From the IMG/VR virus record IMGVR_UViG_2563366968_000008: 53,618 bases of DNA, one strand, 5' to 3'. The position numbers were made by a program, and so were the translations under genes. Positions 9,024 to 44,430 of the stretch are shown here, piece by piece. Position 1 is the first letter of the stretch. Each line of letters begins with the position of its first letter. This DNA comes from a virus. Its lineage: Duplodnaviria; Heunggongvirae; Uroviricota; Caudoviricetes. Below the pieces are notes generated by a model that worked only from the letters and a program-made list of their open reading frames with translations, ran no database searches and was not told the DNA's origin.

Positions 9024-9671
9024 ATGAAAACAAAATGGTATAACTTAGCAAAGCAGCTCATGCGGGCGCAGGGCATGAGCCAGGATTCGCTCGCGGATCG
9101 TATGGGGATAACTAAAGGCGGCCTGTCACACTGGCTGAACGGTCGCCGAGAGCCAAATCTTGAAGATATTGCGCGGATTATGCGCGAGCTTGGTCGTCGG
9201 CAGTTTACTGTTACACATGATGGCATGGTCATTGATGATTCTGTTTCTAATACACTTCAGGCCGTGCCGCCGCGTGATTTAGGTAGTTACCCGGTTATTG
9301 ACTGGAAGGACACAGTAAACAATATGGATGACGCAAGGCGTTCAGCATTACGACACGTTACGACTAGCGTTATTTGTTCAGATGACAGTTACTGGCTGGT
9401 TGCCAAAGGTGAATCAATGAACGCGCCGCAGGGGTTGAGCATCCCGGCGGGGACGATGATACTTGTGGACCCGCACGCGCCAGCTATTGACGGCAAACTG
9501 GTTATAGCCCAGCTTGAGGAAGGGCAGATACCGACGTTTAAACAGTTGATTATTGATGGAGGTCAAAGGCTTTTACGTTCGCTCAATCCGCTGTATCCGC
9601 CAATCCCTATGAATCCAGAATCAAAAATTATAGGCGTGGTGGTTGATGCGAAGATCGTAAACCTGCCATAA
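9024..9671 (+). CDS. CI/LexA-like repressor (HTH_XRE + S24 peptidase domain)
   Basis: N-terminal HTH (QDSLADRMGITKGGLSHWLNGRR), C-terminal S24 peptidase-like domain with GESM motif. Confidence 0.85.
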   Translation: MKTKWYNLAKQLMRAQGMSQDSLADRMGITKGGLSHWLNGRREPNLEDIARIMRELGRRQFTVTHDGMVIDDSVSNTLQAVPPRDLGSYPVIDWKDTVNNMDDARRSALRHVTTSVICSDDSYWLVAKGESMNAPQGLSIPAGTMILVDPHAPAIDGKLVIAQLEEGQIPTFKQLIIDGGQRLLRSLNPLYPPIPMNPESKIIGVVVDAKIVNLP

Positions 9672-9701: not shown

Positions 9702-9794
9702 GCCTGGAAAACACCAAAACGTAAACAGAAAACGTTATTTATTATTTAAATATCAATGGCATATAAAATATTTTAAAAAAGTATACAAAATGGA

Positions 9795-9823
9795 TTGACT
9801 CGATGTTTTACGGGGCGTATATT
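9795..9823 (+). promoter_or_regulatory. Sigma70-like promoter (TTGACT, 17 bp spacer, TATATT), candidate rightward early promoter
   Basis: Near-consensus -35/-10 with 17-bp spacing; 13-mer-like motif GTATACAAAATGG immediately upstream. Confidence 0.5.
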
Positions 9824-10171: not shown

Positions 10172-10462
10172 ATGAGCGTTACAATTATATATGGTAAATG
10201 TGATAGCAAAATGAATGCCAGGGAACGCAGAAGGATAAAAAGAGAAAACGAAAGAAAATCATCACCTGCAATCAATAAAACAGACAATGTGGATAAAGCT
10301 ATTCGATTTGCAAACGAGGAAAGATGCAAACCAAATAGCATTAAAGAACGTCGCAAAGGATCAGTAAAATGGTATACGGAAAATGAAAGCGGCAGCTACT
10401 ACCACGCAACGCAACCACGCCATTTAGGGGAAAAACCCCTGGATAAAGTCCGCTACCATTAA
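10172..10462 (+). CDS. N-like transcription antiterminator candidate (arginine-rich motif)
   Basis: 96 aa basic protein; NARERRRIKRENERK resembles the arginine-rich RNA-binding motif of lambdoid N proteins; first gene after the promoter/nut-like leader. Confidence 0.4.
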   Translation: MSVTIIYGKCDSKMNARERRRIKRENERKSSPAINKTDNVDKAIRFANEERCKPNSIKERRKGSVKWYTENESGSYYHATQPRHLGEKPLDKVRYH

Positions 10463-17428: not shown

Positions 17429-17441
17429 GTTTACAAAATGG
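17429..17441 (+). repeat. 13-mer GTTTACAAAATGG copy 3
   Basis: Exact copy 2 bp after methyltransferase-like gene stop. Confidence 0.8.
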
Positions 17442-17587
17442 CGTCATTGTGTGATGTGGATCACATAATGGCGCTTTATTGTTTGTTCGCATGTATCCGT
17501 TTTGTATACTTCAAACAAACAAAATGCTCTTTAAAAATCCGGTAACGCTGAAATGCGTAAAAATCACCTGAAAAAGGAGAGAGCATT

Positions 17588-37695: not shown

Positions 37696-38172
37696 ATGTC
37701 CGAAACCTGTAAATCCGGTGCGTTTACCGGGCGTGATGTTGCCGTGTTCTATGCCATTGCTTGTCCCAGCGCGAAACCGGAAGAGGGTGGCTACAAGCCG
37801 TTAGGTATGATGCGCGGCAAAACGCTTTCCGTAGAATGGGAATCCGCAGACGCTACCGCTGATAAATCCGCCGACTATACCAAAGAGTCGCTGGTTACTT
37901 ATAAATCAGTGAGCTTCTCTGGTGATGGTGTTTCACGTAGCGATGATACATACAACCAGAAAGCACTAAAACGGCATGTAATGTCGCCGGGCACTGCTAC
38001 CGGAAATCAACCATATGTGTGGCTGAAAATTGTCAGTGCCACCGATGTAACCGAGGGGCCATTCCTTTGCACCTCCTTCAAAGAAGAGGCTCCGTATGAT
38101 GATGTGACGACCTGGTCTATCGAGTGCGAAAGCGCTGGCCAGGTAACTGTAACCGATCCGGTTGCTGCGTAA
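37696..38172 (+). CDS. Major tail (tube) protein candidate
   Basis: 158 aa followed by terminator-like hairpin; position before chaperone and tape measure. Confidence 0.5.
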   Translation: MSETCKSGAFTGRDVAVFYAIACPSAKPEEGGYKPLGMMRGKTLSVEWESADATADKSADYTKESLVTYKSVSFSGDGVSRSDDTYNQKALKRHVMSPGTATGNQPYVWLKIVSATDVTEGPFLCTSFKEEAPYDDVTTWSIECESAGQVTVTDPVAA

Positions 38173-38218
38173 ACAATAAGGGGGCTATTTAGCCCCCCTT
38201 CCTTTTAGGGTGAAGACT

Positions 38219-38896
38219 ATGATTCATGTTCGTACCGGACAATTTGTGGCTATGGTGAACGGTAAGCGCTATGAATTTAACCCGTGTTTCGCTGCGATGG
38301 CTAAAATCGGTAATGACAGGGAGCTTGTGGAATATTTCGCAACCATCCACGGTAGCAAATACCCTTCACGATTACCTACAGATCCAGACCTCCGCAATCG
38401 CATTATGGCGCGGTGTTATGGTGGGATAGTGCAAACGTCAATGCACATCCTGAAATGTTGCTCAGACGACGAAACAGGCCCGTTATTGGGCGAATGCTGG
38501 TTTACTCCTTCGGGCAAATTAAGGTTAAAGCCCGGAATAATGCCAGTTGATGATGTTATTACGCTGGCGCAACACTGCATGTACCACGGTTTAATCGGTG
38601 ACGGGCCGGAAGAAAATACAAGCGAGATCCGGGAAGGTGAATACAAGCCGACATTTGATGTACTTGATTTCGTTTATTCTGCCGTTGCTCATCTGGGATT
38701 ATCTGAATCAGAAGCGTGGAACATGACAATGACCGGATACAGGGCCGCAGTGCGCGCTAAAACGCCGCCAGACGAAAGAAATGAAAGAAGTAGACCAAAT
38801 GTTCACATAAATAAACGTGCTTATGACGAGCAAATGGAGGCCGCTAAAAAGGCGCTAAAAAGAATGGAAAATCGCAAGCAAGAAAAAGCCCGGTAG
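38219..38896 (+). CDS. Tail assembly chaperone candidate
   Basis: Located between major tail and tape measure genes; AGGGTGA SD. Confidence 0.45.
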   Translation: MIHVRTGQFVAMVNGKRYEFNPCFAAMAKIGNDRELVEYFATIHGSKYPSRLPTDPDLRNRIMARCYGGIVQTSMHILKCCSDDETGPLLGECWFTPSGKLRLKPGIMPVDDVITLAQHCMYHGLIGDGPEENTSEIREGEYKPTFDVLDFVYSAVAHLGLSESEAWNMTMTGYRAAVRAKTPPDERNERSRPNVHINKRAYDEQMEAAKKALKRMENRKQEKAR

Positions 38897-38917
38897 ATCC
38901 GGGCGTTTGTCTTATTT
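38888..38917. terminator. Bidirectional hairpin terminator between chaperone and opposite-strand secreted-protein gene
   Basis: GCCCGG-TAGAT-CCGGGC with T-rich run downstream on plus strand and TTTTTCT on minus strand. Confidence 0.5.
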
Positions 38918-39325
38918 GATTCTAACAATATCAATAAAACCGTTACCTAAATCGACAATTGCGTGATTTTTTGCACCAGCGCCGCCTTTATTAAAAATTC
39001 TTTCAGCGAAAGCAACTTTATTTGCTTTGCACTCGTTAGCTATCCTGTTTTTTATTTCGCTGTTGTTTTCAAAGACTACGCCTACAGCAGCCTCGTTTAC
39101 AAGGCCATAATTAAACCAACGAGCATAAACTGGTTTACCTTCAAAATTTTTATCAATTGCCTTAAAAAGAATTGTGGGTGCGGCTGGTTCTTTTTTGATC
39201 ATGTCGTGATATGCGGCTACATGGTTTGCCACTTCTTCACAGTTAATGTTTATGGCCTCGTTAGCGTTAGCGTTAAATGCTAGTGCAGCAATCACAGCAA
39301 GCACCATTTTTGCTAACCGTTTCAT
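38912..39325 (-). CDS. Secreted (signal-peptide) protein of unknown function, opposite-strand insertion in tail module
   Basis: Signal peptide MKRLAKMVLAVIAALAFNANA with ANA-NE cleavage-like site; AGGGGG SD; AT-rich upstream region. Confidence 0.55.
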   Translation of the reverse strand: MKRLAKMVLAVIAALAFNANANEAININCEEVANHVAAYHDMIKKEPAAPTILFKAIDKNFEGKPVYARWFNYGLVNEAAVGVVFENNSEIKNRIANECKANKVAFAERIFNKGGAGAKNHAIVDLGNGFIDIVRIK

Positions 39326-39628
39326 AATCAACCCCCTGTAATTATTCTGATTTGCTAAATGCTTCCTTTAACTTAGTTATACACGCATATTGTTTATTTT
39401 TTAAGTGCTTTTAACATTTCTTCGATAAGGTCCGCATAGCGTTCATATTCGTTGGGACGGTAGTTTACGTTTCTCATTTTCTTATCCTCTTTCACTTCCT
39501 CCGGGACATCCGGCCTTCCTGCATCTCTTCTATCTTTCTCTACATCATATATACAAAACGGTATCGTTAAAATAAAGACATTTTGTATAAAATAGATACA
39601 TAGATCACATTTTGCATGAGGTTAAATC

Positions 39629-41971
39629 ATGGCTACCAGTGTAGGCACAATTTATTACGAAGTTGACGCAAAAACAGGACAACTTCTTGTAGCACAACGA
39701 CAGGCAGACCAGGCCTTTGACCGTATAGAGCGCGGTGCTAAACAGGCCGATCGCCAGGTAAACACACTGAAAACATCAATCAAAGCACTGACCAGGGTTA
39801 TCCATCTGCTAATTGCTGCCGAGGCCGTTAGACAGTTTATGGAAATGGCAGAGCAGGCCAAAATGCTACGCGTCAAAATCAAAATGCTTACAGGCGACGC
39901 GGAATCTGCCGGGCGGGTTTTTGATGGTCTGAAAGAAATATCCAGGGAGACGGGGCAGAGTCTGAAAGATACTGGCGAATTATGGCAAGGCCTGGCTATC
40001 TCACTAAAAAACACCTCCGCTACGGAAGGGCAATTGCTTAACCTGGTTGGCACTATTCAGAAAATGGGTGCATTAGGCGGCGCGTCAGCGGAACAGATGT
40101 CTAACTCAATGCGTCAATTCCGTCAGTCTATCGACGGCGGTGTTCTTCGTGCCGAAGAATTTAACAGCCTGCTTGAAAATACGCCGACCATCGTACAAAC
40201 AATGGCCCGCCATATGGGATTATCAATGGGCCAGTTCCGCGCCGAAATGCTGGACGGCAAGATCACGGCTGAAAGGATGGTTAACGCAATACAGGCGGCT
40301 ACGCAGGAAACAAACGATAAGTTTGCTCAGTTGCCGCGCACATCCGGCATGGCTATCAATGAGCTTAAAGTAGAAATTATGGGCCTTGTTGAGCAGTTGG
40401 ATGATCTTTTTGGCGTATCAGATGGCGTTGTTTCAGCTATCGACTTGATCACGAAAGGCGTTAAAGGGCTTGGCGATGGCGCTAAATTCGCTAAAACCTG
40501 CTTCGACACACTCAAAACGGCTGGTAGCGAATTTATCGACATGTTTGATGATGTGGCTGTTAAGGCTGGAGAGGTGGCAGAGAAGATCATCGCAATGGTG
40601 ACGCCAATCAAGGCGCTAATGGATGGCTATAAATGGATGAAGGAGGTAGTAGGGGAGCAAACCGACGAATATAACAGCAACTACGAGAAGAAATACGGGA
40701 AGACCGTTGGCAAGGTCATGCAACTACAGGATGATCTGACCGCAGCAATCCAGGCTACAGAAGAAGCAAGGAAAAATGAACAGAATGCTGCCAATGACGG
40801 AGCGATTACCGGATTCGACAAGCCAGTAGACAAGCCGAAAAAACAGAAAAAAGAGAAGAAATCGGAAGCTGATCGGCTTGGTGACAAAGGTATAAGCGTT
40901 TCTGATCAGTACAACAAAGACGCCGCCGCCATGCGCAAAGCGTTGGAGAACGGCAAGGCCATTGATGCTGCATTTGCCCAGGGTAAAATCACGCTCCTTG
41001 AGTACCGCGCCGCGCAAAAAGGGATCGGCAAGGAACTGAAAGAAGAATTAGCGCAGATCCCGGTAGATGAACTGCGTGATAAATGGTCGCAAATAGTTAG
41101 CCCGATGGACCAGCTAAAAGGCGAGGTTGACCCCATCCAGCAGGCACAAAATGAATGGGCCGTCCGTAAGCAAATGCTTATCGACCTGGGCGCTACAGAA
41201 GCACAACAGAAACAGGAATTGTTAGCCTATGAGCAGCAGATCCGCGATCTGAAGTGGGAGCAGTGGCAGGCGCAAAGCGACACTAACGGCCTTATCGGTG
41301 ATTGCGTTAATGGCCTTAAAGGTGGCATGAGCAATGCGCTTGTTGGCCTGCTTAACGGCACTCAATCATTGAGCGATGTTTTTGCTAACTTAGGGAGCAA
41401 TATACTAGGGAACATCGGCAACAGGCTTTCTGACATAGCCGCCAACTGGATAGCAGATCAAATCATGATGGAGACACAAAGCAAGGCAATGCAGGCCAGC
41501 ACAACGGCAAGTGCGGTAGCCGCTCAGGGTAGCATCGCTGCGGCAGCGGCCCCGGCAGCGGCGGCAACAGCAGCATCAACTGGCGGTAGCTGGGCGGCGG
41601 CTGGCTCTGCGGCACTCACTGCGATCATGTCTCTGGCAACATCCATCTTCGGTGGCAGGCGCTTTAATGGTGGTAGCGTCATTGGTGGCAACTTGTACCG
41701 TGTCGGGGAAAACAACAGGACGGAGCTATTCCAGACGCCTAACGGGAATCAATATATGATTCCTGGCGAGAACGGCAGAGTTATTCCGGGCCGTGATATT
41801 GGCGGCGGTGGCGGTATTAGTATGCCTGTCAGTATCAGCATTCAGACCACGAACGGATTCAGCGACGAAGACAGCCGCAGACTTGAATTAACAATGGAAC
41901 GTGTAGCCATGAAAATGATAACAAGGGAATCTCAAAGACCAGGCGGAATGTTGCAACCTCGCCGCAAATAA
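39629..41971 (+). CDS. Tail tape measure protein
   Basis: 780 aa, alpha-helical, Gly/Ala-rich segments near C-terminus; upstream of M/L/K/I/J homologues. Confidence 0.8.
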   Translation: MATSVGTIYYEVDAKTGQLLVAQRQADQAFDRIERGAKQADRQVNTLKTSIKALTRVIHLLIAAEAVRQFMEMAEQAKMLRVKIKMLTGDAESAGRVFDGLKEISRETGQSLKDTGELWQGLAISLKNTSATEGQLLNLVGTIQKMGALGGASAEQMSNSMRQFRQSIDGGVLRAEEFNSLLENTPTIVQTMARHMGLSMGQFRAEMLDGKITAERMVNAIQAATQETNDKFAQLPRTSGMAINELKVEIMGLVEQLDDLFGVSDGVVSAIDLITKGVKGLGDGAKFAKTCFDTLKTAGSEFIDMFDDVAVKAGEVAEKIIAMVTPIKALMDGYKWMKEVVGEQTDEYNSNYEKKYGKTVGKVMQLQDDLTAAIQATEEARKNEQNAANDGAITGFDKPVDKPKKQKKEKKSEADRLGDKGISVSDQYNKDAAAMRKALENGKAIDAAFAQGKITLLEYRAAQKGIGKELKEELAQIPVDELRDKWSQIVSPMDQLKGEVDPIQQAQNEWAVRKQMLIDLGATEAQQKQELLAYEQQIRDLKWEQWQAQSDTNGLIGDCVNGLKGGMSNALVGLLNGTQSLSDVFANLGSNILGNIGNRLSDIAANWIADQIMMETQSKAMQASTTASAVAAQGSIAAAAAPAAAATAASTGGSWAAAGSAALTAIMSLATSIFGGRRFNGGSVIGGNLYRVGENNRTELFQTPNGNQYMIPGENGRVIPGRDIGGGGGISMPVSISIQTTNGFSDEDSRRLELTMERVAMKMITRESQRPGGMLQPRRK

Positions 41972-41975
41972 ACTA

Positions 41976-42006
41976 AACCCCGGTGCAATGCCGGGGTTAT
42001 TTTTCG
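41976..42006 (+). terminator. Intrinsic terminator after tape measure gene
   Basis: AACCCCGG-TGCAATG-CCGGGGTT hairpin followed by ATTTTTCG. Confidence 0.55.
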
Positions 42007-42057
42007 TATTTATAAACGACCATTCCGCGCGATATATCCCCTTTCGAATATCTCGAC

Positions 42058-42312
42058 TCACTTATGAGTGCCTTTCACGCCACATAACTTGTTATAGGCA
42101 TGATGCTCAACAATTAACCAAACCTTCAAATCTTCGCTAAACAGCCTCCAATCAAGATTGATATCCATTTTGTATCCGTAACCGTCGCGTAACTTTTTGG
42201 GGTAAACTTCTTTTCTCAGAAAGGCTTTAAGTAATTCCTTACCTTTCTTGATGATCCGGTCCTGTGCGTTTTTCTGTGCTTTCAGATTTCTGTCAATCGC
42301 TACCAGTTTCAT
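42058..42312 (-). CDS. RelE/YafQ/HigB-superfamily toxin-like protein
   Basis: 84 aa; Lys-rich N-terminus and C-terminal DINLDWRLFSEDLKVWLIVEHH...GVKGTHK resembles YafQ/HigB C-termini; GGGGTGAG SD. Confidence 0.4.
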   Translation of the reverse strand: MKLVAIDRNLKAQKNAQDRIIKKGKELLKAFLRKEVYPKKLRDGYGYKMDINLDWRLFSEDLKVWLIVEHHAYNKLCGVKGTHK

Positions 42313-42329
42313 AACTCACCCCATCATCC

Positions 42330-42485
42330 TTAGTTAAGTGCCTTCAGGAAGAAGTCCCGGTATTCATCTTCTTTCGCATTCATCATGAATTGACCGTATT
42401 TGAATGCGTCGTCGAAACCCTTAACGATTGCTATTTCCACTTGTTCGAATGCGTTATTTAGCATTACTACTACATAGCGTTTCAT
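42330..42485 (-). CDS. Small ORF (51 aa) upstream of toxin-like gene, candidate antitoxin
   Basis: ATG with AGGAGG SD at 7 nt; 17-bp gap to toxin-like gene start. Confidence 0.3.
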   Translation of the reverse strand: MKRYVVVMLNNAFEQVEIAIVKGFDDAFKYGQFMMNAKEDEYRDFFLKALN

Positions 42486-42555
42486 TTTGGGCCTCCTTCG
42501 TTGGTACTACTTTCTTCTTGCTTTCTGCATACATCTTGTTGCGTGCTATGTGAAG

Positions 42556-42568
42556 CCATTTTGTAAAC
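42556..42568 (-). repeat. 13-mer GTTTACAAAATGG copy 4 (reverse orientation)
   Basis: CCATTTTGTAAAC on plus strand, followed 5 bp later by TATAAT. Confidence 0.8.
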
Positions 42569-43437: not shown

Positions 43438-43641
43438 TTAAGGTAACTCCACTTCGTTAAATGTAACAAGCACCCCTTGATTTTCTTTATTTATAATTAT
43501 TAAAGAATTAATTGAAGGCAGACATCTTTCCACGCGGTAAACGCCACCAATATCTAAACTGTAATATTCTGTTAATTCTCTATTGTTCCCTTTAGCAAAA
43601 CCCGTAAACCTAACCATTCTTTGACCGTCGTACTTTAACAT
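43438..43641 (-). CDS. Hypothetical protein (67 aa), opposite-strand operon gene 4
   Basis: ATG ORF; operon on minus strand between M and L. Confidence 0.4.
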   Translation of the reverse strand: MLKYDGQRMVRFTGFAKGNNRELTEYYSLDIGGVYRVERCLPSINSLIIINKENQGVLVTFNEVELP

Positions 43642-43649
43642 ATACAGTC

Positions 43650-43898
43650 CTATAAGTTATCACGCAGATAATTAACGCCCTTATCAGTGACGAATGAATG
43701 ATTAACCTGGTTTTCATCCGTCATGATGATGAATAACTTTTCCTGCAAGTATTTCGCTTTCGGGTACAGCGTTAAGCAGACCTGGTACAGTATCCCGCGC
43801 TCAATCAGCAAATCAATGAATTCATGTTCATGATAACCGATAAGGCGGGCGGCCTGTTTCAACGTGTACACATAATCACCGTGATTGCGCCGCGCCAT
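43650..43898 (-). CDS. HTH-like small protein (82 aa), opposite-strand operon gene 3
   Basis: YTLKQAARLIGYHEHEFIDLLIERGIL resembles an HTH. Confidence 0.4.
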   Translation of the reverse strand: MARRNHGDYVYTLKQAARLIGYHEHEFIDLLIERGILYQVCLTLYPKAKYLQEKLFIIMTDENQVNHSFVTDKGVNYLRDNL

Positions 43899-43907
43899 AT
43901 TGCCGCC

Positions 43908-44261
43908 TTATTTATTGAACGCGCCAAGTTTGTCGATACAGAAATCTTTCGCCGCTTTTTCGTATTCGCGTTTTGCTTCTGGATCGTCAGCCGGGAAACC
44001 TTTTGCGTGTATTTCACCAGGGCAAGACTGGTCCATAGAATCTGCATAATAAGCAGTGAAGCTACCATTAATATCTTTCGGGTTCATATCTTCCACCTTA
44101 TCCGGTATTTGTACTGGAGTAATTTTGAATTCTCTGGCGCGACCGAAGAATCGAACGAGTTTTTCTCCTTCCTCGACCGCCATTTCGTAACTGTCATGCA
44201 AACCGTAACCTTCCCAATCATCACTACCAGCCATCCAGACATCAAGACGATACTTTTGCAT
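43908..44261 (-). CDS. Hypothetical acidic protein (117 aa), opposite-strand operon gene 2
   Basis: ATG 44261 with GAGGGT SD; in frame within ORF 43908..44363. Confidence 0.45.
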   Translation of the reverse strand: MQKYRLDVWMAGSDDWEGYGLHDSYEMAVEEGEKLVRFFGRAREFKITPVQIPDKVEDMNPKDINGSFTAYYADSMDQSCPGEIHAKGFPADDPEAKREYEKAAKDFCIDKLGAFNK

Positions 44262-44265
44262 TTTG

Positions 44266-44430
44266 CTAACCCTCATATTTGACAGGTTCGATCTGGTATC
44301 CCAAAAGGCGGTCATCCTCAGCAAGTAAAAGCGCGTCAACCAATGCTTCACCCTCGTCGTCATACAGGGCGATAACCTTTTCCCTACCGTCTGTCATGAA
44401 TACCGTCAACTTCCATAGCTTTTCAGTCAT
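44266..44430 (-). CDS. Hypothetical acidic small protein (54 aa), opposite-strand operon gene 1
   Basis: ATG 44430 with GGAGGTG SD; 4-bp gap to next gene. Confidence 0.35.
   Translation of the reverse strand: MTEKLWKLTVFMTDGREKVIALYDDEGEALVDALLLAEDDRLLGYQIEPVKYEG

What the first reader, a model, noticed from the sequence alone, without database searches (positions are those of the whole stretch)
38912..39325. Opposite-strand gene for a signal-peptide protein inserted between tail chaperone and tape measure genes
A gene on the reverse strand with its own SD, an AT-rich upstream region and a bidirectional terminator interrupts the otherwise co-directional tail operon. This is the hallmark of a moron (horizontally added cargo); the product has a cleavable Sec signal peptide and no recognisable domain, compatible with a periplasmic fitness, exclusion or anti-defence factor.
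Basis: partly seen in the sequence, partly recalled or inferred. Interest (0 to 1): 0.5.

Follow-up and report, generated by a model that had tools for sequence, protein, structure and literature searches.

The report
Periplasmic moron gene between tail genes
A temperate E. coli phage carries, backwards between two tail genes, a small add-on gene for a protein exported to the periplasm; it is a real, selected gene of an orphan family sitting in a swap-in/swap-out cargo slot, an ordinary kind of phage "moron" whose function (most likely blocking entry of other phages) is still untested.

Summary
Window 38912-39325 (- strand) is a real 137-aa gene (dN/dS about 0.10, against 1.7 for the antisense frame). 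It has an AGGGGG ribosome-binding site, a classic Sec signal peptide (MKRLAKMVLAVIAALAFNANA|NEA), two invariant cysteines, 38% GC against 47-50% in its flanks, and a hairpin terminator at 38888-38904.

It lies between the DUF6246 gene, which occupies the tail-chaperone position, and the tape measure gene of an mEp021-like (mEpimmI) coliphage. This is the junction where the archetypal moron, HK97 gene 15, sits.

The protein is an orphan. Only 17 clusters exist, all from E. coli and always in this slot. It matches no Pfam, PHROG, NCBIfam, PADLOC or PDB entry, and its confident helical model has no fold match.

- The transcription unit also contains a conserved 27-aa upstream gene.
- It has a conserved promoter-like inverted repeat.
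- The slot holds at least 13 cargo architectures, nearly all envelope proteins. Unrelated mature domains are fused to the same signal-peptide coding segment.

Function is inferred only. The best guess is a periplasmic block to entry of superinfecting phages (about 0.4). This is a new member of a known kind, of moderate interest.

The parts
38210..38896 (+). Flank (context): DUF6246 gene in the tail-assembly-chaperone position. Its TAG stop lies in the loop of the terminator hairpin.
   Evidence: PF19759 at 3.6e-54 and phrog_791. The chaperone role is inferred from position only.
38888..38904 (.). Hairpin terminator GCCCGG-TAGAT-CCGGGC. It is followed by TTTTTCTTG on the - strand (end of the moron transcript) and by GTTTGTCTTATTTG on the + strand.
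   Evidence: Found on both strands. Fold energy is -17.3/-18.2 kcal/mol, z -3.5, with 0/200 shuffles as good. Homologous terminators are annotated in mEp021, mEp010, mEp013, mEp515, mEp554 and mEp044.
38912..39325 (-). Moron cargo gene: a 137-aa precursor of an orphan periplasmic protein ('family A'). The mature part is 116 aa, 12.8 kDa, pI about 8, with invariant C29 and C99.
   Evidence: dN/dS is 0.097. AF2 model: pLDDT 79.2, pTM 0.77, five helices plus a C-terminal beta hairpin.
39263..39325 (-). Codons 1-21: Sec (SPase I) signal peptide MKRLAKMVLAVIAALAFNANA, with predicted cleavage before N22.
   Evidence: Read directly from the sequence. AFNANA is conserved and the model has low pLDDT over residues 1-20. 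The same 63-nt segment is 90-94% identical in relatives where it is fused to an unrelated mature domain.
39332..39337 (-). Shine-Dalgarno AGGGGG, 6 nt upstream of the ATG.
   Evidence: The same RBS is annotated for mEp021_63.
39394..39477 (-). Conserved upstream small gene, 27 aa (MRNVNYRPNEYERYADLIEEMLKALKK), first gene of the reverse transcription unit. Its SD AGAGGA is at 39490-39485.
   Evidence: It is present in 43 loci whatever the cargo. Pooled pN/pS is 0.08 in this frame against 0.22-3.3 in the other five. It is confined to mEpimmI phages.
39548..39576 (-). Promoter-like element for the reverse unit: -35-like TTTATT (39576-39571), 17-nt spacer, -10-like TATATA (39553-39548). In most relatives it reads TT(C/T)ACT-17-TATAAA.
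   Evidence: Read. It falls below the threshold of the consensus scan. In D-type relatives the first cargo gene starts about 45 nt after the -10, so the promoter must lie here. Function is not shown.
39548..39591 (.). Conserved inverted repeat: arms 39579-39591 (TTTATACAAAATG on the - strand) and 39548-39560 (CGTTTTGTATATA). The consensus is a perfect 13-bp repeat, TTTATACAAAATG-N19-CATTTTGTATAAA. It contains the phage-wide motif TACAAAAYG.
   Evidence: The motif occurs 15 times in the window against 1.67 expected, and 0/100 shuffles reach that.
39629..41971 (+). Flank (context): tape measure protein gene.
   Evidence: PF20155 at 4.6e-50; phrog_1538 at 2.6e-156.

Best explanation
**Shown**
- The locus is a moron cassette inserted backwards at the junction between the chaperone-position gene (DUF6246) and the tape measure gene of an mEp021-like temperate coliphage.
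- On the - strand the unit consists of: a conserved promoter-like region inside an inverted repeat (about 39548-39591), a conserved 27-aa gene (39477-39394), the 137-aa cargo gene (39325-38912) and a hairpin terminator (38904-38888).

**Inferred from sequence rules**
- The cargo is exported by Sec and cleaved after AFNANA.
- Its two invariant cysteines are oxidised in the periplasm.
- It stays there as a soluble 12.8-kDa helical protein.

**Inferred from analogy and context only**
- It protects the lysogen by interfering with the periplasmic stage of infection by incoming phages.
- That could mean binding an ejected tail component (tape measure or tail-tip proteins such as the NlpC/P60 K-like protein) or a host envelope factor they need.
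- This is what HK97 gp15 does from the same junction, and what T4 Spackle does from the periplasm.

**Orientation**
- The reverse orientation would keep moron transcription from running into tail genes in the lysogen.
- It would also let strong late transcription silence the moron during lytic growth.

The confidence figure refers to the functional part. The architecture and export parts are near 0.9.
For: **Architecture**
- The gene is real: dN/dS 0.097 against 1.71 for the antisense frame.
- It is patchy among relatives. Homologs occur in MagusPhagus, mEp021 and mEp010, while mEp013, mEp515, mEp554 and mEp044 carry other genes at the same junction.
- Every context found for family A is this slot.

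**Export**
- The signal peptide has a canonical n/h/c structure with invariant A-x-A.
- The 63-nt signal-peptide segment is 94% (mEp021 vs L046) and 90% (L009 vs L043) identical between alleles whose mature parts are unrelated. Identity is 42-44% just after the cleavage site, and hhalign aligns only columns 1-43. The slot therefore exchanges exported domains behind one leader.

**Envelope theme of the slot**
- There are 13 architectures in 51 loci.
- Cargo types are three Sec-signal proteins, two lipoproteins, a 33-35-aa TM peptide and a 100-aa two-TM protein. Only two types are cytoplasmic.
- Cargo D belongs to the VasI family (PF11319, 60 bits). A VasI-like fold has been reported in an anti-phage system (bioRxiv 10.1101/2024.01.28.577318).

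**Precedents**
- HK97 gene 15 lies between the tail chaperone and tape measure genes, is prophage-expressed and blocks genome entry in a tail-dependent way (PMC3594210; L063).
- T4 Spackle is a periplasmic protein that inhibits the gp5 tail lysozyme (PMC7677548).
- Ltp-type exclusion proteins are linked to the tape measure protein (PMC3952083).
- ES18 has 'possible morons' after its DUF6246 gene.
- mEpimmI phages are already known to carry envelope exclusion lipoproteins elsewhere in the genome (PMC11893012).
- This phage's tail tip includes an NlpC/P60 domain protein, a possible periplasmic target.
Against: - Expression in the lysogen is untested.
- The window's promoter is a weak match (3/6 and 4/6) and was not picked up by the consensus scan.
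- The promoter carries a motif shared with the phage's PR-like promoter and the repressor-gene upstream region. It could therefore be phage-regulated and silent in lysogens.
- Selection within the family is purifying, with no sign of an arms race.
- An envelope location is equally compatible with host-fitness functions.
- Positional analogy with HK97 gp15 is not homology: gp15 is a 62-aa membrane protein on the same strand as the tail genes.
Confidence: 0.4

Rival explanations
1. The protein is a periplasmic host-benefit factor unrelated to phage exclusion. It could be an orphan immunity or inhibitor protein against periplasm-acting antibacterial toxins (T6SS amidase or muramidase effectors, colicin M or pesticin-like toxins, lysozyme). 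It could also be a small envelope-stress or adhesion-related factor that raises lysogen fitness in the gut.
For: - Same export evidence as above.
- It is small, disulfide-bonded, helical and periplasmic, the usual format of T6SS and lysozyme immunity proteins (own knowledge).
- One alternative cargo in the slot is a VasI-family (T6SS-associated) lipoprotein.
- Another has weak BamE-like similarity.
- Morons such as lambda lom and bor give host phenotypes unrelated to phages (PMC3594210).
- The hosts are gut and animal E. coli.
Against: - The family is extremely rare (8 of 5,426 complete E. coli genomes).
- It is never found outside this one phage slot. Useful immunity genes usually spread to islands and plasmids.
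Confidence: 0.3
2. The gene has a lytic-cycle role under phage control. Its promoter would be governed by a phage regulator that binds the TACAAAAYG motif, so it would be silent in the lysogen. It would be made early after infection or induction. Its job would be to remodel or protect the envelope of the infected cell, for example by excluding secondary infection during the latent period like T4 Sp/Imm, protecting against lysis from without, or tuning lysis.
For: - The inverted repeat around the promoter is conserved in all 43 distinct upstream sequences.
- Its motif is 9-fold over-represented in the phage (15 vs 1.67).
- The motif sits next to the repressor gene (8941) and abuts the -35 of the strong PR-like promoter TTGACT-17-TATATT (9795-9823). 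The geometry there is the same as at this moron and at the second reverse block (42553-42565).
- T4 Spackle is an early lytic product (PMC7677548).
Against: - The orientation is opposite to, and convergent with, the late operon. That favours expression when late transcription is off.
- The gene is dispensable: other group members lack it.
- The motif lies upstream of the -35 at PR. That position fits an UP element or activator site, or common promoter ancestry, better than a repressor operator.
- No binding protein has been identified.
Confidence: 0.15
3. It is a chance ORF or decaying remnant with no function.
For: - It lies in an AT-rich region.
- It has no known domain.
- It has a narrow distribution.
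Against: - dN/dS is 0.097 over 90 pairs with dS > 0.1, against 1.71 for the antisense frame.
- Length, cysteines and signal peptide are conserved down to 70% identity.
- It has a good SD.
- AF2 gives a confident model from a shallow alignment.
Confidence: 0.01

Closest known systems
HK97 gene 15 moron (Juhala et al. 2000; Cumby et al. 2012; reviewed in PMC3594210)
   Same: - It is an extra gene at the same junction, between the tail assembly chaperone gene(s) and the tape measure gene of a siphovirus.
- It has its own terminator.
- Its composition differs from its flanks.
- Its product is an envelope-located small protein.
- It is absent from close relatives.
   Different: - gp15 is 62 aa and is an inner-membrane protein of the YebO family. 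It lies on the same strand as the tail genes.
- The present gene is on the opposite strand and encodes a 137-aa Sec-cleaved soluble periplasmic protein with no homology to gp15.
- The present gene is preceded by a conserved small gene.
- The exclusion function is shown for gp15 and not tested here.
T4 Spackle (Sp), periplasmic superinfection-exclusion protein (PMC7677548)
   Same: It is a small, signal-peptide-bearing, mainly helical periplasmic phage protein. It acts on an incoming tail component, the gp5 lysozyme.
   Different: - Sp is an early gene of a virulent phage, not a prophage moron.
- The target here is unknown.
Ltp-type exclusion lipoproteins of Streptococcus thermophilus phage TP-J34 (PMC3952083)
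   Same: It is a prophage-encoded protein located outside the cytoplasmic membrane. It blocks DNA entry, and the tape measure protein is implicated as its target.
   Different: - Ltp is a lipoprotein of a Gram-positive host.
- It is encoded in the lysogeny module, not in the tail module.
- It shows no homology to the present protein.
ES18 'possible morons' gp18-gp20 downstream of the DUF6246 gene gp17 (NC_006949 annotation)
   Same: They sit at the same junction in a phage with a homologous DUF6246 gene (38% identity). That junction is also used there for add-on genes.
   Different: - The ES18 genes are on the same strand as the tail genes.
- They are unrelated in sequence (one is DUF4041).
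- They are not obviously exported.
mEpimmI Lpp exclusion lipoproteins (Lpp021, Lpp010; PMC11893012)
   Same: They belong to the same phage group and are envelope proteins. They have been shown experimentally to exclude group members and lambda.
   Different: - They are encoded elsewhere in the genome (gp81 of mEp021, gp116 of mEp010).
- They are lipoproteins and unrelated in sequence.
- The paper does not discuss gp63 or this slot.

Membership tests
Moron (independent add-on transcription unit in a phage genome) | Present at a junction where close relatives have the flanking genes adjacent or hold other DNA | tested here: met
   The homolog is present in 3 of 7 related phage records, and the other 4 hold different genes. 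There are 13 architectures in 51 loci.
Moron (independent add-on transcription unit in a phage genome) | Base composition different from surrounding genes | tested here: met
   GC is 38.2% in the gene and 34.3% in the spacer, against 46.7% and 50.5% in the flanks.
Moron (independent add-on transcription unit in a phage genome) | Own terminator | tested here: met
   Hairpin 38888-38904 plus a T-run on the - strand.
Moron (independent add-on transcription unit in a phage genome) | Own promoter | tested here: inconclusive
   A conserved -35/-10-like pair lies inside a conserved inverted repeat. The window's version is weak (TTTATT-17-TATATA) and was not reported by the consensus scan.
Moron (independent add-on transcription unit in a phage genome) | Expressed from the repressed prophage | not testable with these tools
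   This needs RNA-seq or 5'-RACE of a lysogen.
Sec/SPase I secreted protein | Positively charged n-region, 7-15 residue hydrophobic h-region, small residues at -3/-1, no lipobox cysteine | tested here: met
   MKRLAK / MVLAVIAALAF / NANA|N, read directly. AFNANA is conserved. The leader is exchanged as a unit between unrelated mature domains. No dedicated predictor (SignalP) was available.
Known superinfection-exclusion protein families (HK97 gp15/YebO, T4 Sp, T4 Imm, P22 SieA, Cor/Llp, Ltp) | Sequence or fold homology to a family member | tested here: not met
   [not shown]
Known superinfection-exclusion protein families (HK97 gp15/YebO, T4 Sp, T4 Imm, P22 SieA, Cor/Llp, Ltp) | Reduces plating or DNA entry of challenge phages when expressed | not testable with these tools
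   This is an experiment.
EF-hand Ca2+-binding proteins | 12-residue loop with conserved ligands at positions 1, 3, 5 and 12 (Glu/Asp at 12) and Gly at 6 | tested here: not met
   Residues 38-74 align to canonical EF-hand repeats of eukaryotic proteins P0019 and P0020 (hhalign probability 50%). However, position 3 is variable (N/K/I/Y/H/Q/D) and position 12 is R/T/K in the family. The model also shows a shorter loop.
Periplasmic lysozyme inhibitors / T6SS immunity proteins (Ivy, PliC/MliC, PliG, Tsi/Tai) | Sequence or fold homology | tested here: not met
   [not shown]

The most novel reading that the evidence does not exclude
The chaperone|tape-measure junction of mEpimmI phages would be a dedicated, phage-wired export cassette. 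One conserved promoter/operator-like repeat, one conserved 27-29-aa leader gene and one shared Sec signal peptide would serve as a fixed adapter. Behind it, unrelated envelope domains are swapped by recombination, with the breakpoint at the signal-peptidase site. Family A would be a new-fold periplasmic protein that blocks genome entry by binding the ejected tape measure or tail-tip proteins of related siphoviruses.
Probability: 0.25. Interest if true: 0.6.

Novelty: new member of a known kind. Interest (0 to 1): 0.35.

Why it matters
If the exclusion reading is right, family A would be a new soluble periplasmic entry blocker in E. coli. Apart from T4 Spackle, few of these are known, so it would be a handle on the poorly understood periplasmic step of siphovirus DNA delivery.

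The slot itself is a compact natural library. It holds at least nine cargo families, most of them envelope proteins, behind one promoter, one leader gene and one signal peptide. These could be screened together for phage exclusion or host-fitness phenotypes.

If instead nothing is found, this remains one more uncharacterised moron in a well-understood position.

Tried and rejected
**Homology searches that found nothing useful**
- Pfam, PHROGs, NCBIfam, PADLOC, and PDB by single sequence and by profile.
- The 5.8-billion-protein word search returned only the family itself.
- The exhaustive HMM search of 1.84 billion representatives added only eukaryotic EF-hand repeat proteins and a beta-prism-lectin-like repeat protein.
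- I rejected the EF-hand lead because the Ca2+ ligand positions are not conserved.

**Fold searches on a pLDDT-79 model**
- Foldseek PDB gave E >= 0.63 and BFVD gave E >= 0.13.
- afdb50 was unavailable.

**Other checks**
- The + strand 106-aa ORF 38963-39283 is a shadow ORF. It is codon-aligned antisense, stays open because the sense gene has almost no TTA/CTA/TCA codons, and has dN/dS 1.7.
- A read-through or frameshift extension of DUF6246 into the slot is excluded. An in-frame stop follows within about 50 nt, and no overlapping + ORF crosses 38896.
- Family A and family B are not remote homologs: only the signal peptide aligns.
- The small upstream ORF could not be searched in the large protein database because the minimum query is 40 aa. 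tblastn against phages found it only in the mEpimmI group.
- The mEpimmI paper and its supplements do not mention gp63 or the slot.
- I did not test linkage of cargo type with tape-measure type. Physical adjacency would produce linkage under any hypothesis.

Full report
**What the window is**

The window is a near-complete genome of a temperate E. coli siphovirus of the mEp021 / mEpimmI group. Megablast of 38000-40500 hits MagusPhagus (84%), mEp021 (80%) and five other mEp phages. The window starts with an integrase (1-1236). It carries a CI-like repressor (9024-9671) and a lambda-like tail tip with L, K-like NlpC/P60 and J proteins. The group is described in PMC11893012. That paper does not discuss the gene in question or its homolog mEp021_63.

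**The observation**

It runs 38912..39325 on the - strand and encodes 137 aa from the ATG; a TTG two codons upstream is less likely to be the start. AGGGGG lies 6 nt before the ATG.

The hairpin GCCCGG-N5-CCGGGC at 38888-38904 was detected on both strands. It folds better than all 200 shuffles on either strand. Its T-run is clean for the - strand and interrupted for the + strand. The stop codon of the upstream DUF6246 gene lies in its loop.

GC is 38% in the gene and 34% in the 300-nt upstream spacer. The two flanking tail genes have 47% and 50%.

The flanks are:
- tail tube (PF06199), 37696-38172
- DUF6246, in the position of a tail assembly chaperone, 38210-38896. That role is inferred from position; the match to Phage_TAC_6 is only E 0.26.
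- tape measure protein, 39629-41971

**Is it a gene?**

Yes. I collected 17 distinct nucleotide versions of the gene from phage records, IMG/VR contigs and assemblies. In the proposed frame the median dN/dS over 90 pairs with dS > 0.1 is 0.097. In the codon-aligned antisense frame it is 1.71. The 106-aa + strand ORF 38963-39283 is therefore a shadow ORF.

Length, the signal peptide, two cysteines (C29, C99) and long motifs are invariant down to 70% identity. The motifs are FEGKPxYAxWFNxGLV, EIxNRIANEC and AFAxRxFNxGG.

**The product**

The N-terminus, MKRLAK-MVLAVIAALAF-NANA|NEA, is a textbook SPase I signal peptide with no lipobox. I read this from the sequence, because no SignalP was available.

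Independent support comes from relatives. The first 63 nt of the gene are 94% identical between mEp021 (family A) and contig L046, and 90% identical between L009 and L043. In those partner contigs the leader is fused to a different mature protein (family B, 116-119 aa). Identity falls to 42-44% immediately after the predicted cleavage site. A profile-profile comparison aligns only columns 1-43. The leader therefore behaves as a separate, reused export module.

The mature protein is 116 aa and 12.8 kDa, with pI about 8. AlphaFold2 with a 13-sequence alignment gives pLDDT 79 and pTM 0.77. The model has five helices and a C-terminal beta hairpin.

**No known relatives**

Nothing was found in any of these:
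- Pfam, PHROGs, NCBIfam or PADLOC
- PDB sequences, searched with the single sequence and with a profile
- Foldseek against the PDB: best E 0.63
- BFVD: best E 0.13

The word-indexed search of 5.8 billion proteins returns 17 clusters, all from E. coli and all at least 70% identical.

The exhaustive HMM search of 1.84 billion representatives adds only repeat proteins. Two of them are eukaryotic arrays of canonical EF-hands. Residues 38-74 do align with an EF-hand helix-loop-helix (hhalign probability 50%). However, loop positions 3 and 12 are not conserved in the family, so I do not regard it as a calcium-binding EF-hand.

Only 8 of 5,426 complete E. coli genomes carry the gene. In each it is a single chromosomal copy.

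**The slot**

All contexts recovered for family A are the same junction. I used the invariant 18-mer upstream of the unit to pull 46 IMG/VR contigs. I combined these with the phage records and classified 51 loci.

The junction holds 13 architectures built from about nine cargo families:
- three Sec-signal proteins (A, B, C)
- two lipoproteins: D, a VasI-family protein (PF11319, 60 bits), and E (phrog_18614, with weak BamE similarity)
- a 33-35-aa TM peptide
- a 100-aa two-TM protein
- two small cytoplasmic proteins

Family A is the most common single cargo. It occurs in 22 of 51 loci, but 6 of those were found through the protein itself. It also occurs stacked with the TM peptide or with lipoprotein E.

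This is a cargo hot spot dominated by envelope proteins. ES18, a Salmonella phage with a homologous DUF6246 gene, is annotated with 'possible morons' at the same junction.

**The rest of the transcription unit**

Upstream on the same strand lies a 27-aa ORF (39477-39394, SD AGAGGA). It is present in 43 loci whatever cargo follows. There are 25 nucleotide variants and 17 protein variants. Pooled pN/pS is 0.08 in its frame, against 0.22-3.3 in the other five frames, and its indels are in frame. It is a real, conserved small gene of unknown role and is confined to this phage group.

Further upstream is an inverted repeat, conserved in all 43 distinct upstream sequences. Its consensus is TTTATACAAAATG-N19-CATTTTGTATAAA, and its arms in the window are at 39579-39591 and 39548-39560. 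It encloses a -35/-10-like pair. In most relatives this reads TT(C/T)ACT-17-TATAAA. In the window it reads TTTATT-17-TATATA, which is too weak for the consensus scan to report. In D-type relatives the first gene starts about 45 nt after this -10, so the promoter has to be here.

The core motif TACAAAAYG occurs 15 times in the window against 1.67 expected, and none of 100 shuffles reach that count. Copies are found:
- upstream of the repressor gene
- directly abutting the -35 of a strong PR-like promoter, TTGACT-17-TATATT at 9795-9823
- at 17432/17498
- upstream of the second reverse-strand block, at 42557/42627

The geometry TACAAAATGG-N1-(-35)-N17-(-10) is the same at PR, at this moron and at the second block. 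Either these promoters share ancestry or an UP-like element, or a phage or host protein binds them. So whether the moron is on in the lysogen is open.

**Mechanism**

The architecture and the export route are well supported. The function is not testable here.

I commit to a periplasmic block of superinfection as the most likely role (about 0.4), for these reasons:
- The junction is the one occupied by the founding moron, HK97 gene 15. Its product is prophage-expressed and prevents genome entry in a way that depends on the incoming tail (PMC3594210).
- The slot is a polymorphic collection of envelope proteins.
- One co-allelic cargo belongs to a fold family recently tied to phage defence.
- Periplasmic or surface proteins that neutralise incoming tail components are known: T4 Spackle (PMC7677548) and Ltp (PMC3952083).
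- mEpimmI phages demonstrably use envelope proteins for exclusion.

Against this reading, there is no homology to any exclusion protein, selection is purely purifying, and expression is unproven.

The main rival is a host-protective periplasmic factor, such as immunity to periplasm-acting toxins or a stress factor (about 0.3). A lytic-cycle role under phage control is about 0.15. A chance ORF is excluded.

**Comparison and novelty**

The locus works like, and meets the tested criteria of, a moron. It is not a member of any known protein family. It is a new member of a known kind.

The features beyond the textbook picture are the reverse orientation, the conserved leader gene, the shared signal-peptide adapter with a recombination joint at the cleavage site, and the motif link to the phage's own regulatory regions. 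These are interesting details rather than a new category. Interest is 0.35.

Noticed in passing
window 39394-39477 (- strand): A conserved 27-29-aa gene (MRNVNYRPNEYERYADLIEEMLKALKK) precedes whatever cargo occupies the slot. Pooled pN/pS is 0.08. It is hydrophilic and probably helical, and it is confined to mEpimmI phages. Its role is unknown (leader, regulator or coupling).
   Followed up: partly
window 8941, 9784, 10463, 13897, 13921, 17432, 17498, 39552, 39579, 42557, 42627 and others: The motif TACAAAAYG (often (T/A)TACAAAAYGG) occurs 15 times against 1.67 expected. It lies mostly in regulatory spacers and often as inverted pairs 31-70 bp apart. It is a candidate binding site for a phage or host regulator, or a shared promoter module. 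No binding protein has been identified.
   Followed up: partly
window 9781-9823 (+ strand): A strong PR-like promoter, TTGACT-17-TATATT, lies downstream of the repressor gene and its terminator and upstream of the N-like gene 10172-10462. The motif TATACAAAATGG abuts its -35.
   Followed up: no
window 41976-42485: A second reverse-strand block lies right after the tape measure gene. It has a bidirectional terminator (41976-41998), an 84-aa ParE-like toxin gene (42058-42312, PF24732 at 9e-12) and an upstream 51-aa gene (42330-42485) that may be its antitoxin. Its upstream region (42553-42565) contains TACAAAATGGCTTCAC, the consensus of the slot-1 promoter region.
   Followed up: partly
window about 43438-44363 (- strand): A third reverse-strand block lies inside the tail module. 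It comprises a 67-aa gene, an 82-aa gene with an ANT/KilAC antirepressor-like domain (43650-43898, PF03374 at 7e-7) and a 151-aa ORF. The tail operon is therefore interrupted three times, not once.
   Followed up: partly
loci L002 vs L046, L009 vs L043 (relatives), corresponding to window 39263-39325: The recombination joint falls exactly at the signal-peptidase cleavage site. The 63-nt leader is 90-94% identical between alleles whose mature domains are unrelated. Lipoprotein D also begins MKRLAKVAM... with a similar 5' end.
   Followed up: yes
loci L016, L019, L022, L024, L028 and others (relatives, same slot): An alternative cargo is a 219-aa lipoprotein of the T6SS-associated VasI family (PF11319, 2.5e-16; phrog_1848). 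It is often followed by a 124-aa lipoprotein or a 106-aa cytoplasmic protein. A VasI-like fold was recently reported in an anti-phage system (bioRxiv 10.1101/2024.01.28.577318).
   Followed up: partly
window 17450-17465: There is a perfect CRP-consensus-like palindrome, TGTGA-N6-TCACA. It sits between a TACAAAATGG motif and its inverted copy, upstream of a small + strand gene starting at about 17589.
   Followed up: no
locus L050 and protein P0002 (relatives): A 6-nt in-frame duplication in the c-region of the signal peptide (NANA to NANANA) gives a 139-aa variant. The GCTAAC repeat appears slippage-prone and the change is tolerated.
   Followed up: no
window 39110-39220 (residues 38-74 of the protein): This segment resembles an EF-hand helix-loop-helix, with hits to eukaryotic EF-hand repeat arrays. 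The calcium-ligand positions are not conserved, so it is probably a degenerate or coincidental match.
   Followed up: yes
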